Shown here one piece after another: positions 57,001 through 63,000 of a stretch of 64,000 nt of DNA (the first letter of the stretch is position 1; each line of letters begins with the position of its first letter). This DNA is from Escherichia coli (GTDB lineage Bacteria; Pseudomonadota; Gammaproteobacteria; Enterobacterales; Enterobacteriaceae), in NCBI RefSeq assembly GCF_003991155.1, contig NZ_CP031297.1; one strand, 5' to 3'. A program made the position numbers.

Positions 57001-60000
57001 AGCCGGTGATCGGTGGTGAAGACTTCCATTGGGCAACGGCATTGGTTGACGCAAAGGGCACTCTCAAGCTGTCACCGGCAGCGAAAAAACAGGGGATGCC
57101 CTTCAACATTATGGATGGTCAATTGGCTGTCTATTCACCTAACGGAACTAAAAAGAGCTGCGGCCATGAGCCTTGCGAATATCTCCCGGTAATGATGTCC
57201 GGAGACGCAATCATGGTCACTTCATCTTTGGTTCATTAGTAACTCACCGGGGCAATGCCGAAAGGCCTTTGCTCCGGCCTATCCGAAAGGAGAGTAATCA
57301 TGAAAATCGAAACTGTTGTGCCTTTACCTCCCGAGGATTCAGGCCTTCAACACTGCATTGCCAGGTTCCATAACCGCAACATGGATTCCAAGCGAAAAGA
57401 CAAGACCCGTTTTTTCAGGAGGGAGCCGGTTATGATCGTAAACCCAGAGACCAAAGCAAAGGTTCTCCGGTATGCGATGGGCAACCCTGGGAATTTATCC
57501 ATCACAAAGCTGGCGGTCGCGCTGGATTACGATGCGGTAGATGCTCTGGGTGTTCGTTTTAAAGACACTGTAAATCTTGAGGTTCGCAGAGCCAGGCGCT
57601 GGGAAGTCTGGCAGTGGTTCTGGAACCATCCGGATCAAAGTGTCCAACTGTCAATCAAATTGGGCGTGGTTGGCGCTGTGTTGGGAGTCATGGGCTTCCT
57701 GACTGGCGTAGCTCCGTACCTCTTGGGATAAACCAATAAAGCCGTTAACGGGCAATGTAAGTCCGGAGACGGCTTGCATTGCTCTCTCGAAAGTGGAGAG
57801 TCAAATGAACACATTAGAACAACTTGTAAATCAGAGAGTGCTTGAGGAAGGTCTGAAAAAGGCGAAGCCATTGGCCGCGCAAATGGGGCTTGAATCTGTA
57901 CCTGATGAGATGCTTGAAATGATCTGCCCAAACTTGAACTACTCTGGGCAGTTTACGCCAGCTCTGTACGCGAGATTTCAAAGCGTAAAGCGATTACTGA
58001 AAGAGTTGTCGGAACAAACCTCACCTAAGCACGGGCATATTGTGAAGTTTACCAACCAATATGGGAGCTACGATGAGTCAGCTTTGCTGTTCAAAGAAGG
58101 CGACGTCAGAAACCAGAACTTGGTTGCTTGTGTGGGCGGGAAGACGATAAATCTCGGAGAGCTAGAGCTTCGAGATTATGGGCTCAATATGCACATCGGT
58201 TGCGGTGGACCATTTGAGCCGATCTCAGAAGCGCAGATTCAGTCCTTGTCTGAGTTTGACTTCTATGAGACGACCTACAGATTCTGGGGCCAGAATCCAT
58301 GTGGAAACGGGATGATAGACATCACCGTCCCTATGAAACGTTGGTTCTTGACTGTGTAGCTTCAACCTGAGTGCGCCGAGAAATCGGCGTACCGGCCCCT
58401 TAAAAAGGGTAATCAGCGCAGGGGGAAACCCCGCGCTTTCCCAAGCATCTCGGTTTCCCAGGGTGCTTCGGAAAGTGCCTTAGGCGCTCAAGTGCGGTAG
58501 CTGGCTGCCAAAAACAAACAGCAAATTATCAACCCTGACGGGAGCACCTCCTGTTAGGGGGGCTCCGTCATAAACTGAACGGAGATATAGCATGTCTAAA
58601 AACGTCAACGATGTTTTTTCAAACCGAACTTCTTTGGAATGTACTGTGAATGCAGCGCTGGATCGTCGTATCGGTCTGCGTGTCGGGTTCCCTCATTACA
58701 GAGAAGGAGCAAACGGTGTGGTTTGTGAGATCGAAGCAGAGTACCCATTGCTCAACACTCATTCGAGTGTTGCATGGCCCCTGCTCGATGAACTCAACAG
58801 TTACACCATCCAAAAAAACCAATCGCTCATTGATCACATTGATAATGCGGTCGCTGAACTGTTGAAACACAAGGCTCGTCTACAGCTTGATATTCAAAAG
58901 CTGCAAGACGGTGACATTGATCTGGTGAAACAGGCCAAGCAGCAATACGAAGACAACCAGATGTCGAGTAGCAGCTAGTTCAGGTCTGATAGCCAGGATT
59001 CAATTTTAACCCTACCGGGGTGCTTTCCCGGAAGGGATGGGCACCCTGCTAATCCAGGAGGCCCTATGCAACAAACATTAAACTTTGATCTATCAGAACA
59101 ACCCATCCCAGTGCTTTTGCGTGGGGATAAGTGGGATTCTGTTTGGTCAGAACTGACTGATAACGAGGATTTGAACTTCGTTGATGCCAGTAGAGGAACC
59201 AGTCTGTCATCGTTGATCACGTCATCGGTTGAGTCCATTCACACGGCCTTAATTGATGGGTGGACCATGATGATCGGCTATTCCAGTGGTAAAGATTCTG
59301 AAACGGTCTTGCACCTGTTCCTGATGGCCCTGATCCGGGCTGTAAGGAGTGGGGCGACCATCAGCCAGCACCACTTCATCTTGCACACTGACACACTGAT
59401 CGAAAGCCCAGAGGTAAGGTGGCTGGCGGATCAGAAACTGGCCGAGCTGGAGCGTTTCATTGCGAAGGAAAACCTTCCTCTGACCATCGTTCTAGCAAAG
59501 CCTGGGATCTCGCAGAGTTGGACGGGCCGAATCCTTACTGGGAGGGGGTTGCCTACGTTTTCCAACTCCACGGCCCGCCAGTGTAGCCAGGATTTAAAAA
59601 TCACCTCTGCCAAAAGAGCGAAGGCAGCTTATATGCGAGAGCTTCCCAAAGAGGTTCGACAGAAAGTCTGCCTTTTGCTGGGCAGTCGTGATGCTGAAAG
59701 CACTATTCGTGCGGCCAACATTGCAAAACAGCGAGGAAGCTCAGATCGCGTCATTAAGACGAAAGATGGGGGTGAGCTGTATGTGGTGAAAAACTGGTTG
59801 GCGAGTGATGTCTGGGAGTTCTTACTATCCGCTGGCATGGGCTCAGCATATCCTCTGCCAAGTTACTTGGAGAGCAATGTCACTACGGCAGAGCTTTACA
59901 AGGCGGCAACAGGGGAGTGCGTGTGGTCGGCAACAGAGAAGAAGGCCAGTGACGCCTGTGGCGCTCGCTTCGGTTGCTGGGCTTGCCAGGCTGTTGGGTT

Positions 60001-63000
60001 GGATAAGTCAATGGAGACGTTGCTTGCCACGGACCCTGAAAGGCATGGCTATATGTCGGGGCTGAACCGCATCCAGCGCTACTTGGCAAAACGCCGGTAC
60101 GCATGGGAAGACCGCCATCCCGTAGGTCGAACGATTTACGAGGGCGGATACATCAAAATACAGCCGGACGTTTACAGTCCTGTTTTCCTAGAACGATTGC
60201 TTCATGTCTGTTGCAGCATGGACTACATGGAGCAAAAGAGAGCTGATGAGCTGGCATACAAGCTGGCTACTGGTCAAGCAGAGGATAACGACTGGAACCG
60301 TCGAATGGCAGAGCCACAATTCCGGATCATATCGGAAGAGGCTTTAGTCCATATCGACTTCATGTGGGCCTTCCATCATTTCAATGATAAGCCTTTCCAT
60401 GCCCTGGAGATTTACCACAGGGTTTGGTCGATGGGTGATCTGGACTTGCTGGAAGACGAGCCGCAGTGTGAAACCGTTCCTCAGTCACCAATTCCGAAGC
60501 CATTGTGGTTGAAGGTTGGTCGCTGGGGCGATGGTTCGCTTTCTGATGGCTTGGCCGATCCGTTAGCGGAAATGGCTTACTTTGACGGCGGGGATGACCC
60601 GTTGGCAGCGCAAGTGATCAATACCGCAGACGGAAAGAGAAGGGTGGTTTGCTTCGCAGAAGATGATGAAGTGAAAGTCGATCCCGACTCCGCTGCGTTC
60701 ATCATCTGGAACGAATACCCGCGACTAAGGGAGTCTGTACTAAAGGGACATTATACGCCCGGTAGTGCAGCGCAGTTCTACCTTCGGTTCGGAGCAATCC
60801 AGCTTGCGAAAGGAAAAGGCGCTTTGTATCACCGTATGATGCAAAGAGGTCAAACCTACCACCAGATGGGCCTTACAGGGCTACAGACGATGGAAGGAAT
60901 CCAACAGCGCAAGGATGTCAAAGTGCTTAGCGATGCTAAGTACAAAGATCTGGTGAAGCGAAAAATCAAGGGAAGACTGGCAACGGTACGCTGGTGGGTC
61001 AACTTGCACTTAACGTTCAAGTACCATCTGCACCACCGTACTCCGACGGGGTTGTTCATCGAGAAGCAACTTGACCAGGAAGCAATGGAAGAACAGAAAC
61101 GGCATCAGGAGCGATGGTTTAACTACGTGACTGACGCGATGCTTTGTTACTCCAGCGCATTCTGTATGAGCGTCATGGAAGGGCGAGAGGGGAGCGGAAA
61201 CGCCAACATTCGTCGTTACATGGCCGCGACCAGAAGGAAGGCTTATACGGCCCTCTGCGAGCTCTTGGACAATACTGACGCCCAGTGGATGAATGATGTG
61301 GTCCAGAGTGCCGTAGGGCAGTATGAGGCGATACAGGCAGCCCTAACCGAAGGTTCCGCGCTTGCTATCTATCTCGACTGGATCAACCTACTGTCAAAAC
61401 GCCATCCAGCCTCTTTGGAGCGACATGTCAGAACGATGATCAAGGCGGTTCAACGCTTACATCGCCGCGACGACACAGAGTTGCAAAGAGGACAGCAAGG
61501 CTTGTCCTTGGCCGCATAAAAAGCCCTCCTTCGGGAGGGCTTTTTCTTTTGCACCCCAAAAGGGCAATTACAGCGTTTTACCCTTTTAGGTGGCTGTCAT
61601 ACTCTTTGTTCATTGTCAGCGCTTGCTGGCTATAACGGTAGCTGGCCCAAAACAGCAATAACCTAACCCCTCGGGAGGAAACCCCTCCTGGGTTCTCTCC
61701 CACAAACAAAGGAGAGAAGCATGAGCCTAGACAAGTTAAGTCGGCTGGTGGACCAACAACGAAAGATCCAGGATGAAATCGACAATGAAATCATTCTGGC
61801 CGTCAAAGAGGTGTTGGCTACAAACTCAGTCGGTTTAGCCCGTGAGCTTGTTGGGGGTGTCCCGCAAGATCATCCATTCCATCCGTTTTTACTCGCTATA
61901 GCTAAGCAGCTTGACCCGAGATAACTAAGTAACCCAACCGGGTACACCAAGGCCCGGTCGGCTTTGGTGTACCTCCAACCAATTTTGGAGGCACTATGTC
62001 TAATTCAAATTTCGGCTTTCTAGCTCTGGCCTTGCGCCAACGCCTGATCAAACGCTGGTCACTGATGCACTCTGTTCAACCGGAGTCTGTGTTGGAACAC
62101 AGCGCTGTTGTTACCCTGCTTTCCTACCTGGCTGGCAATATTGCCATTCAGCAAGGGAAGTCGGTGGATCTGGCAGTCATGCTTGCTCATGCTTCGTTGC
62201 ATGATGCAGCCGAGGTTCTCTGTTCGGATGTTGTAACACCGGTCAAGAAAGCAAACGCTGTTTTGCAGCGTGAGTTTGAACGACTGGAAAAGGCCGCAGA
62301 GGACAAACTCATCCAGACTCTTCCCGAAGAACTCCAGGATGCAGTCGCCATAGCCTTCGCTCCCGGTGGCTATGAACAATCACTGGTTAAGGCCTGTGAT
62401 ACCTACTCCGCTTACATCAAGTGCAAACTTGAGGTGGCCGCAGGTAATGGCCTTGAGTTCCAGGATGCTCTCAGCAAAATGGAACGTGTTGTTGCTCAGG
62501 TGAAATCGGACTTCCCGGAAATCGACGCTCTGGACAAATGGTTTGGTAACGGACTCGGCCATTCAGTAGATAAACTGCTGGCAGGGGGTAACGATGACTA
62601 ATCCAATCCCTGGCGACATCAAGATTAAGGACTTTGGCCGCGACCGGAAATTCCGTTCGGTTGATGAGCTTCAAAGCACTTTGTCAGAACAGTACAAAGG
62701 TCAGCATGTCAGCATCGTTTACCCTGCAAAGCCCAGCGGTTTACTCCGCACGGTTTTTGTCAGTGTCGATGATGCTGGTGGCGTGAATCGAACCTATGGG
62801 GACCAGTCTCCTGTCGATTTTTCTGCCATCAAAGATGACCTGTATGTACCAAGTGACCTGTAGGAGAGCACTAGCTATGGTGGTGATCATCGTAAACACA
62901 GGACACTATGAGTTTATCGGCCTTGGTGAGACCCACGGACAAGCCACAGAAGGGCTTTTGAAACGCTGGGACGAACACTGCGAACGTAATCCGGATGCTG

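What the first reader, a model, noticed from the sequence alone, without database searches (positions are those of the whole stretch)
59066..62601. Orphan DndC-like PP-loop enzyme followed by a YfbR-like dNMP phosphohydrolase: candidate DNA-modification or nucleotide-pool module
The 817-aa protein carries an SGKDS PP-loop and the ARFGCWAC Cys motif characteristic of DndC-type sulfurtransferases, plus an unrelated C-terminal extension of about 350 aa. No dndA/B/D/E or restriction partner is present. After a terminator and a new box and leader come a 67-aa ORF and an HD-domain enzyme closely patterned on the 5'-deoxynucleotidase YfbR. Upstream lie a YfaE-like ferredoxin and two methyltransferases. 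An orphan DndC-like enzyme on a broad-host-range plasmid could write a protective backbone or base modification, or destroy a defence signal. The dNMPase could edit the nucleotide pool.
Basis: partly seen in the sequence, partly recalled or inferred. Interest (0 to 1): 0.65.

Follow-up and report, generated by a model that had tools for sequence, protein, structure and literature searches.

The report
Solitary DndC-like enzyme on IncC plasmid
Two conserved backbone genes of IncA/C resistance plasmids, a stand-alone relative of the DNA-sulfur enzyme DndC and a separate YfbR-type deoxynucleotidase, are real and look intact, but they do not form one module and their functions have never been tested.

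Summary
The window is IncC plasmid backbone. The 817-aa ORF is pVCR94 gene vcrx113, the 67-aa ORF is vcrx114 and the HD enzyme is vcrx115. All are already annotated in about 780 public plasmids.

The PP-loop (SGKDS) and five cysteines are invariant in an alignment that includes bona fide DndC. No Dnd partner lies in the window.

However, vcrx113 scores far below the DndC equivalog cut-off. It belongs to a plasmid-restricted sister family with two extra parts:
- A private domain (aa 465-622), found in only 57 of 1.84 billion protein clusters and with no known fold.
- A variable helical tail.

The family sits in about 2,170 PLSDB plasmids, 89% conjugative, mostly IncC and IncHI2. Between IncA and IncC it is under strong purifying selection (dN/dS 0.06).

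The "module" idea fails. A terminator and an AcaCD promoter separate the two genes. The YfbR homologue is confined to IncA/C. No IncC neighbour travels with the DndC-like gene elsewhere.

One short clade is always paired with a DndB-like gene. That is the one recurring link to another Dnd-system gene.

Most likely vcrx113 is an active sulfur/adenylate-transfer enzyme that helps plasmid establishment or counters defence. This is inferred, not shown.

The parts
58592..58978 (+). vcrx112, a 128-aa ORF of unknown function. It was predicted to be in one operon with the DndC-like gene.
   Evidence: ORF. No Pfam, NCBIfam, PADLOC or PHROG match. Rockhopper operon vcrx112-vcrx113 in Carraro 2014 Dataset S1. 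Not found next to the DndC-like gene outside IncA/C.
59066..61519 (+). vcrx113, an 817-aa solitary DndC-like PP-loop/Fe-S-type enzyme. It is annotated 'phosphoadenosine phosphosulfate reductase'.
   Evidence: AcaCD-dependent expression, 6 -> 979. dN/dS 0.06 against IncA pRA1.
59126..60457 (+). DndC-homologous catalytic region (aa 21-464). It contains the PP-loop SGKDS (nt 59285-59299), C173, C285, C298 and the CWAC motif (nt 59963-59986).
   Evidence: In a 59-sequence alignment that includes two bona fide DndC, S73 K76 D77 S78 C173 C285 C298 C304 C307 are invariant. Foldseek matches to PAPS-reductase/PP-loop folds: 8rom, 6vpu, 5gha.
60458..60931 (+). Family-private alpha/beta domain (aa 465-622).
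60932..61516 (+). Variable basic helical tail (aa 623-817). It is absent from the 626-670-aa clade.
   Evidence: Long helices in the AF2 model. Column conservation 0.12-0.30. pI 9.5. Missing in P0016, P0024, P0039 and P0070. dN/dS 0.15.
61518..61550 (+). Intrinsic terminator after vcrx113.
   Evidence: 12-bp stem, UUCG loop and U tract; dG -21.6 kcal/mol, z -4.54.
61551..61574 (+). AcaCD operator of the vcrx114-vcrx119 operon. The TSS maps to about 61610-61612.
   Evidence: ChIP-exo motif 86650-86678 and 5'-RACE TSS 86713-86715 in pVCR94dX. Mapped with an offset of 25103. It shares the GCCC-N5-GGGC core with the traL, vcrx068 and vcrx098 boxes.
61636..61665 (+). Partial rptI-type repeat inside the 5' leader of vcrx114.
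   Evidence: The repeats are described as Bet/Exo annealing substrates in Roy 2020.
61721..61924 (+). vcrx114, a 67-aa ORF of unknown function and the first gene of the AcaCD-activated operon.
   Evidence: No family match. 89.6% identical in IncA pRA1.
61996..62601 (+). vcrx115, a YfbR-type HD-domain 5'-deoxynucleotidase.
   Evidence: Pfam PF12917 8e-38; NCBIfam PRK03826 128.5 bits, above the cut-off of 122. 2PAQ match at 1.6e-26, with identical residues at the NRW, EHS, HD..E, D and D positions of the alignment. Expression 50 -> 6412 with AcaCD.

Best explanation
These are two independent, conserved backbone genes of IncA/C plasmids. Both are switched on with the conjugation regulon by AcaCD.

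vcrx113 is a probably catalytically active member of a plasmid-restricted sister family of DndC. Its N-terminal 460 aa keep the ATP-pyrophosphatase PP-loop and the full DndC cysteine set. In DndC that set is described as three [4Fe-4S] ligands plus a cysteine dyad. A private alpha/beta domain and, in the long forms, a basic helical tail take the place of the missing DndD/DndE partners.

The most likely job is an establishment or anti-defence function. The enzyme would take sulfur from the host cysteine desulfurase and use ATP-dependent activation. It would then either mark plasmid nucleic acid, or interfere with host self/non-self discrimination that reads phosphorothioate marks.

vcrx115 is a separate YfbR-type dNMP phosphohydrolase that acts on the deoxynucleotide pool.

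Shown: identity, intact motifs, solitary status, regulation, distribution and purifying selection.
Inferred: catalysis, substrate and any anti-defence role.
For: Identity and prevalence:
- Identical DNA in 784 plasmid records, 707 at >=99%. IncC typing.
- The private domain is in 2,168 PLSDB plasmids, 1,937 of them conjugative.

Catalytic integrity:
- S73/K76/D77/S78 and C173/C285/C298/C304/C307 are invariant across 59 sequences of 24-82% identity.
- That alignment includes P0100 and P0101, which pass the DndC equivalog cut-off.
- The AF2 model is confident (pLDDT 87.8), with a PP-loop fold.

Selection: dN/dS 0.06 overall against IncA pRA1 (0.04, 0, 0.06 and 0.15 by region).

Regulation: expression rises from 6 to 979 when AcaCD is supplied.

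Solitary status: no conserved neighbour across backbones, and no Dnd partner in the window.

Link to Dnd-system genes: the short clade is immediately preceded by a DndB/DGQHR gene in 5 of 5 loci.

Context elsewhere resembles establishment or anti-defence islands:
- DUF932, LPD29, a methylase and a large ParB in a Burkholderia plasmid.
- A position next to the relaxase genes in L024 and L030.
- A C5 methylase and PcfJ nearby in L034.

Precedent:
- A phage PAPS-domain/Dam fusion confers escape from Dnd (bioRxiv 10.1101/2021.05.05.442762).
- Aca-regulated phage PAPS reductases have been proposed as anti-defence genes (PMC13551039).
Against: - No case is known of a DndC-type enzyme working on DNA without a DndD/SspC ATPase and a DndE/SspB DNA-recognition partner (reviewed in PMC12707154; PMC10853773).
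- A Tn-seq screen for entry into V. cholerae O395 (type I R-M plus CRISPR) flagged only vcrx089-093.
- Rescued pVCR94 derivatives with a 23.7-kb rptI-rptI deletion stayed transmissible. By my coordinate mapping that deletion spans about 40.6-63.7 kb of the window and removes vcrx113-115. The gene is therefore dispensable for basic transfer.
- Expression depends on AcaCD, which was measured in plasmid-bearing cells. That is not evidence of early expression in recipients.
- Whether the gene lies in the leading region is not established; oriT is far away, near mobI and repA.
- I found no report of phosphorothioate in IncC DNA.
Confidence: 0.45

Rival explanations
1. Two-gene DNA-modification/nucleotide-pool module. 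The DndC-like enzyme and the YfbR-like dNMPase would work together, for example one writing a modified nucleotide and the other clearing modified or signalling dNMPs.
For: The two genes are 476 bp apart on the same strand. Both are induced by AcaCD. The pair is conserved between IncC and IncA.
Against: - A strong terminator and a separate AcaCD promoter lie between them.
- IS4, IS3 and group II intron insertions are tolerated in the spacer.
- The YfbR homologue is essentially confined to IncA/C (834 records). The DndC-like family is in about 2,170 plasmids, including IncHI2, which have no YfbR gene nearby.
Confidence: 0.07
2. Non-catalytic decoy or competitor. The protein would bind host IscS/DndA, DndD/E or a reader of phosphorothioate marks, and so block host PT-based restriction without modifying anything itself.
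For: It is a solitary DndC homologue without the partners needed for phosphorothioation. The phage PAPS-domain precedent against Dnd has no established mechanism.
Against: Every PP-loop residue and every cluster or dyad cysteine is invariant, and the catalytic part has dN/dS 0.04. A pure binder would not need this.
Confidence: 0.12
3. The enzyme acts on something other than DNA. It could be a tRNA/RNA thiolase or adenylyltransferase, or a small-molecule sulfur enzyme. It would tune host translation or metabolism for the plasmid rather than protect DNA.
For: The closest solved folds include FAD synthase, CysH, ATP sulfurylase CysD and the tRNA thiolase TtuA. There is no detectable DNA-binding domain. 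PHROGs files the relatives under auxiliary metabolic genes.
Against: By sequence it is far closer to DndC (E 1e-34 to 1e-41) than to CysD/CysH (E 0.004 or worse). The DndC-specific cysteine set is kept. One clade is coupled to DndB. The neighbours are DNA-handling genes: methylases, ssb/bet/exo and a toprim protein.
Confidence: 0.15
4. Part of a plasmid-borne defence or exclusion function. An orphan modification enzyme would mark the plasmid or host DNA, so that a nuclease encoded elsewhere on the plasmid could attack unmarked competitors such as phages or other plasmids.
For: The IncC backbone carries other defence-like pieces. vcrx057 matches the helicase DpdF (2.6e-101). There are three methylases. 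DndC homologues are normally the modification half of defence systems.
Against: No restriction partner is linked in any of the backbones examined. The family is almost confined to conjugative plasmids. It was not found with DndFGH, SspE or Pbe-type genes in the loci inspected.
Confidence: 0.08

Closest known systems
DndC/DptC (NCBIfam TIGR03183), the sulfurtransferase of the DndABCDE DNA phosphorothioation system
   Same: - PP-loop ATP-pyrophosphatase fold.
- SGxKDS motif.
- The cysteines C173, C285 and C298-x5-C304-x2-C307 are invariant with bona fide DndC.
- Homology runs over about 400 aa.
   Different: - It scores 119.9 bits against an equivalog cut-off of 290.4, and all family members tested score 116-138.
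- There is no DndD/E or DndA partner.
- It carries a private 160-aa domain and a helical tail that do not match the DndC C-terminus.
- It is almost restricted to conjugative plasmids.
Phage PAPS-reductase-domain proteins with anti-Dnd activity. Examples are the Vibrio phage P5a PAPS-Dam fusion (Piel et al.) and the Aca-regulated phage PAPS reductases.
   Same: A DndC-like PAPS-reductase domain carried by a mobile element without the rest of the Dnd machinery. It is proposed, and in one case shown genetically, to counter a host defence.
   Different: - The phage protein is 479 aa with a C-terminal Dam methylase, whereas this one has a private non-methylase domain.
- No close viral structural relative of the whole architecture was found in BFVD.
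- No phenotype is known for the plasmid protein.
SspD (SspABCD) and BrxP (type 4 BREX) PAPS-reductase components
   Same: DndC-family PP-loop enzymes used for DNA backbone sulfur modification, each with a different set of partners.
   Different: - They work with SspB/SspC, or with BREX components and DUF4007 or ferredoxin-like additions.
- BrxP lacks the DndC cysteine dyad, which vcrx113 keeps.
- The PADLOC hits were to DndC models plus one model labelled 'Type II methyltransferase'.
E. coli YfbR 5'-deoxynucleotidase (PDB 2PAQ), for vcrx115
   Same: 39.5% identity over 162 aligned positions. Residues aligned with 2PAQ's NRW, EHS, HD..E, D and D positions are identical. It passes the NCBIfam equivalog and Pfam thresholds.
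   Different: It is plasmid-borne, induced by AcaCD and confined to IncA/C-type plasmids. Its substrate range has not been tested.

Membership tests
DndC (TIGR03183 equivalog) | PP-loop ATP-pyrophosphatase motif SGxxDS | tested here: met
   SSGKDS at aa 73-78. S73, K76, D77 and S78 are invariant in 59 sequences that include true DndC.
DndC (TIGR03183 equivalog) | The DndC cysteine set ([4Fe-4S] ligands plus a cysteine dyad) | tested here: met
   C173, C285, C298, C304 and C307 are invariant and align with P0100 and P0101, which pass the DndC cut-off. Cluster binding itself was not tested.
DndC (TIGR03183 equivalog) | Whole-protein score at or above the curated equivalog cut-off | tested here: not met
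   119.9 bits against 290.4. For PRK06850, 140.8 against 536. Five relatives score 116-138.
DndC (TIGR03183 equivalog) | Encoded with DndD (ABC ATPase) and DndE, usually also DndA/B | tested here: not met
   No such genes in the PGAP annotation of the equivalent 64 kb. No DndB by tblastn. No DndD/E among the PADLOC hits of the ten further window ORFs scanned. No conserved neighbour in 19 other loci.
DndC (TIGR03183 equivalog) | Installs phosphorothioate in DNA | not testable with these tools
   Needs LC-MS/MS or iodine cleavage of plasmid DNA with and without vcrx113.
PAPS reductase family (Pfam PF01507) | Pfam model match above the gathering threshold | tested here: not met
   No Pfam family at E<=0.01 for the window protein. 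Relatives carry only weak or faint PF01507 hits. The fold does match PAPS-reductase-type structures.
YfbR 5'-deoxynucleotidase | Family model above the curated cut-off | tested here: met
   PF12917 130.4 bits (cut-off 25.9). NCBIfam PRK03826 128.5 bits (cut-off 122).
YfbR 5'-deoxynucleotidase | HD metal ligands and catalytic or substrate residues | tested here: met
   R20/W21, H35, H69/D70, E73, D78 and D135 are identical to the residues at the corresponding aligned positions of 2PAQ. Their assignment as metal ligands or catalytic residues rests on my own knowledge of YfbR. Enzyme activity was not tested.
AcaCD regulon of IncA/C plasmids | AcaCD operator upstream, and AcaCD-dependent transcription | tested here: met
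   The box at 61551-61574 matches the ChIP-exo motif, and other boxes share GCCC-N5-GGGC. Expression rises for vcrx113 (6->979), vcrx114 (1->2931) and vcrx115 (50->6412). vcrx113 has no mapped box of its own, so read-through from upstream is inferred.
Plasmid leading-region anti-defence genes | Location in the first-transferred region, and early expression in the recipient | not tested
   The IncA/C oriT lies next to mobI, outside this window. Transfer polarity relative to vcrx113 was not determined. In L024 and L030 the homologue lies within a few kb of the relaxase genes.

The most novel reading that the evidence does not exclude
vcrx113 and its IncHI2 and other homologues may be single-polypeptide DNA-backbone (phosphorothioate or related) modification enzymes. 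The private C-terminal domain would replace the DndD/DndE scanning apparatus. The major multidrug-resistance plasmid families could then write a protective mark on their own DNA, possibly on the transferred strand. That would let them pass defences that read phosphorothioate marks (Dnd, Ssp, Pbe, type 4 BREX).
Probability: 0.15. Interest if true: 0.8.

Novelty: new variant of a known kind. Interest (0 to 1): 0.45.

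Why it matters
IncC and IncHI2 plasmids are among the main vehicles of multidrug resistance in Enterobacterales and Vibrio. Both carry this solitary DndC-like gene, and between IncA and IncC it is under strong purifying selection. No function is known.

If it modifies DNA or disarms defences that read phosphorothioate marks, it would help explain the broad host range of these plasmids. 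It would also be the first DndC-type enzyme shown to work without DndD/E.

If it does neither, a widespread backbone gene still needs explaining. Either way the question can be tested directly with one deletion mutant and standard assays.

Tried and rejected
- **Pfam on the 817-aa protein.** No hit at E<=0.01.
- **PDB sequence search.** Only a marginal FAD-synthase match.
- **Foldseek against PDB and BFVD.** Only generic PP-loop folds, and no DndC structure or viral full-length relative. The afdb50 library was unavailable.
- **hhalign of the C-terminal profile against true DndC.** No relation.
- **Search for a conserved partner gene across backbones.** None, apart from DndB in one clade.
- **YfaE-like ferredoxin as electron donor.** Not co-distributed with the family.
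- **Rfam scan of the window.** No hits, so the repeated leaders are not a described RNA family.
- **Literature.** Nothing links 'phosphoadenosine phosphosulfate reductase' or 'DndC-like' with IncC or IncHI2, and vcrx113 and vcrx115 are never discussed in the text of any paper in the library.
- **Supplementary tables of Roy 2020.** Not held, so the rptI deletion end-points had to be mapped by arithmetic.
- **A possible AcaCD-like box upstream of vcrx112 (about 58392-58418).** Rejected, because the CCC...GGG spacing is 7-8 rather than 5 and no ChIP-exo peak was reported there.

Full report
**What the sequence is.** The 3.5-kb stretch is identical or nearly so in 784 PLSDB plasmids, 707 of them at >=99% identity. 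These are typed IncC, MOBH, MPF_F. The coordinates can be placed on pVCR94dX using the published gene table:
- The 817-aa ORF (59066-61519) is vcrx113.
- The 67-aa ORF (61721-61924) is vcrx114.
- The HD protein (61996-62601) is vcrx115.
- The 541-aa C5 methylase upstream is vcrx109, also called dcm1.

GenBank already labels these genes 'phosphoadenosine phosphosulfate reductase' and 'yfbR 5'-deoxynucleotidase'. The objects are therefore not new. What is missing is any functional study. No paper in the searchable library discusses vcrx113 or vcrx115, or links a PAPS reductase with IncC or IncHI2.

**Check of the observation.**
- SGKDS is at aa 74-78 and ARFGCWAC at aa 300-307.
- DndC profiles cover aa 53-464 (PADLOC 1.4e-41; TIGR03183 1.3e-34).
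- A 12-bp UUCG hairpin with a U tract follows the stop codon (dG -21.6, z -4.5).
- The 'box' at 61551-61574 is the AcaCD operator mapped by ChIP-exo. The 5'-RACE start site lies about 40 nt downstream. The box shares the GCCC-N5-GGGC core with the traL, vcrx068 and vcrx098 operators.
- The roughly 110-nt leader contains a partial copy of the rptI repeat.
- The YfaE-like ferredoxin and the two methylases are upstream.
- No Dnd partner is in the window.

**Anatomy of vcrx113.** I aligned 59 family members, 24-82% identical to the window protein. Two of them, P0100 and P0101, pass the curated DndC cut-off. The alignment leaves S73, K76, D77, S78, C173, C285, C298, C304 and C307 invariant. These correspond to the PP-loop and to the DndC cysteine set, which the literature describes as three [4Fe-4S] ligands plus a cysteine dyad.

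The AlphaFold model is confident (pLDDT 87.8, pTM 0.76). Only its N-terminal part matches solved structures: the FAD-synthase PAPS domain, CysH, CysD and TtuA.

The protein is nevertheless not a DndC by the curated test. It scores 119.9 bits against a cut-off of 290.4, and five relatives score 116-138.

Beyond aa 464 there are two parts.
- Residues 623-817 form a basic (pI 9.5), poorly conserved bundle of long helices. This tail is missing from a clade of 626-670 aa.

**Distribution and selection.** The private domain is found in 2,168 PLSDB plasmids, 1,937 of them conjugative. Most are in Escherichia, Salmonella, Klebsiella, Enterobacter and Citrobacter.
- About 700 of these are IncA/C.
- Most of the remainder appear to be IncHI2-type plasmids 190-370 kb long. 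This is inferred from record sizes and from pAPEC-O1-R; the replicon types of these records were not tabulated.
- More distant orphan relatives occur on Pseudomonas, Burkholderia, Halomonas and Bacillus plasmids.
- Between IncC and IncA pRA1 the gene has dN/dS 0.06 (dS 0.32). By region the values are 0.04 (PP-loop part), 0 (aa 346-464), 0.06 (private domain) and 0.15 (tail).

The family is thus sequence-poor but epidemiologically common, and the whole protein is under constraint.

**Is it a module with the dNMPase?** No.
- The terminator, AcaCD operator and start site make vcrx114-119 a separate operon.
- IS4, IS3 and a group II intron sit in the spacer in many plasmids.
- I compared 19 loci from other backbones: IncHI2-type, Kluyvera, Buttiauxella, Vibrio and Morganella. 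None of the 33 other IncC ORFs tested from 39-64 kb of the window lies within 10 kb of the DndC-like gene. All-against-all clustering found no partner shared across backbones.
- The YfbR homologue is in 834 plasmids, of which 770 are >=95% identical IncA/C copies.
- The ferredoxin is likewise not co-distributed.

vcrx115 itself is a credible YfbR. It passes both curated thresholds and is 39.5% identical to 2PAQ. The residues aligned with 2PAQ's NRW, EHS, HD..E, D and D positions are identical.

**One informative association.** In the short clade, a DndB/DGQHR gene (PF14072, 4e-45) sits directly upstream in all five loci examined. These come from Salmonella, Citrobacter, Enterobacter and Dickeya elements. 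No long, tail-bearing form has it. DndB-like genes also occur alone on 1,082 plasmids.

This pairing is the only recurring link found between the family and another Dnd-system gene. It also raises the possibility that the helical tail and DndB are alternative accessories.

Contexts elsewhere look like establishment or anti-defence islands:
- DUF932, LPD29, DUF6884, a methylase and a large ParB in a Burkholderia plasmid.
- A position next to the relaxase genes in L024 and L030.
- A C5 methylase and PcfJ near the gene in L034.
- Prok-E2/ThiF pairs nearby in Vibrio-type loci.

**Regulation and dispensability.** In pVCR94, vcrx113 rises from 6 to 979 and vcrx115 from 50 to 6412 expression units when AcaCD is supplied. 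vcrx113 has no mapped operator of its own. Its induction is probably read-through from the vcrx098 promoter, which is an inference.

A Tn-seq screen for entry into V. cholerae O395 flagged only vcrx089-093.

The commonest CRISPR-escape deletion, rptIb-rptIf (23,702 bp), left the plasmids transmissible. Repeat copies lie at 40583, 41627 and 50294. Using the reported deletion sizes, this deletion maps to about 40.6-63.7 kb of the window and would remove vcrx113-115. The mapping is my inference, because the supplementary table is not held. On that mapping the genes are accessory for transfer into permissive laboratory recipients.

**Most likely mechanism.** Three things point to an active DndC-type enzyme rather than a relic or a pure decoy:
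- the invariant catalytic and cysteine residues;
- the strong constraint on the sequence;
- the restriction of the family to conjugative elements.

By analogy with DndC, it would accept persulfide sulfur from the host IscS and use ATP to activate its substrate. That step rests on established knowledge of the family, not on anything tested here. The private domain, plus either the tail or DndB, would supply the substrate recruitment that DndD/E provide in Dnd systems.

There are two precedents. A phage PAPS-domain protein confers escape from Dnd, and Aca-controlled phage PAPS reductases have been described. These make an establishment or anti-defence role the best guess.

Against it:
- no DndC-type enzyme is known to act alone;
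- no DNA-binding fold is recognisable;
- no phenotype or modification has been reported.

I put this reading at about 0.45. The rivals are listed separately: a non-DNA substrate, a decoy, the modification half of a defence system, and a joint module with YfbR.

**Verdict.** The family is a distinct, previously uncharacterised variant of the DndC kind. Interest is moderate, because the question is open, clinically relevant and easy to test, but nothing here is mechanistically surprising yet.

Noticed in passing
window 40583-40621, 41592-41721, 46427-46556, 50259-50332, 54673-54746, 58490-58528, 61636-61665 (+): A family of direct repeats lies in the spacers between co-oriented operons. Its core is GTGCGATAGCTGGTCGCCAAAAACAAACAGCA, preceded by a GTTCTCTTCGGAGAGC hairpin. 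Two copies are 121 nt long and 100% identical. They correspond to the rptI repeats that Roy 2020 showed to be Bet/Exo annealing substrates. At least the copy before vcrx114 lies inside a mapped 5' UTR, so they may also act as RNA elements. Rfam has no match.
   Followed up: partly
window 7452-9644 (-): The 730-aa protein vcrx057 matches the PADLOC model of DpdF at 2.6e-101, over the first ~670 of 1499 profile positions. DpdF is the helicase of the 7-deazaguanine Dpd system. The gene lies in the AcaCD-activated vcrx059-056 operon, divergent from traI.
   Followed up: no
window 50398-50937 (+): vcrx098 (179 aa, no family match) is only 53% identical between IncC and IncA pRA1, while most flanking genes are 85-99% identical. 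It is the first gene of the most strongly AcaCD-induced operon (3 -> 8357). A local divergence hot spot of this kind is typical of genes in an arms race.
   Followed up: no
window 54000-64000: The scan found no sigma-70-like promoter on either strand in 10 kb, against 7.6 +/- 3.0 in shuffles. This is consistent with transcription that depends on AcaCD-type activated promoters and read-through.
   Followed up: no
L024 6870-7955; L027 6488-7558; L028 38-1108; L030 4900-5970; L034 3896-4960: The short (626-670 aa) clade of the DndC-like family is always immediately preceded by a DndB/DGQHR gene. The long, tail-bearing forms never are. DndB-like genes also occur alone on 1,082 plasmids, including about 63.6-kb plasmids in Klebsiella and E. 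coli where the gene is split by IS1.
   Followed up: partly
L025/L026 4414-6013; L035 1536-3101; L022 8707-9189; L035 7944-8402: A Prok-E2_D plus ThiF (E1-like) gene pair lies 2-3 kb upstream of the DndC-like gene in Vibrio-type loci. A DUF6884 gene abuts the DndC-like gene in a Burkholderia plasmid and lies about 1 kb downstream of it, on the opposite strand, in locus L035.
   Followed up: no
window 61520-61720 (spacer between vcrx113 and vcrx114): In many IncC plasmids this spacer has taken up IS4, IS3-family elements (ISKpn18) or a group II intron (ltrA), without disrupting either flanking gene.
   Followed up: no
L016-L020 (for example NZ_CP154354.1); plasmid hits H47-H51: A subset of large Enterobacter/Salmonella plasmids (265-417 kb) carries only a truncated 486-488-aa remnant, equivalent to aa 302-746 and lacking the PP-loop. 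An IS-sized 322-aa ORF lies just upstream. L007 and L015 show frameshifted copies. The gene can therefore be lost in some lineages.
   Followed up: no
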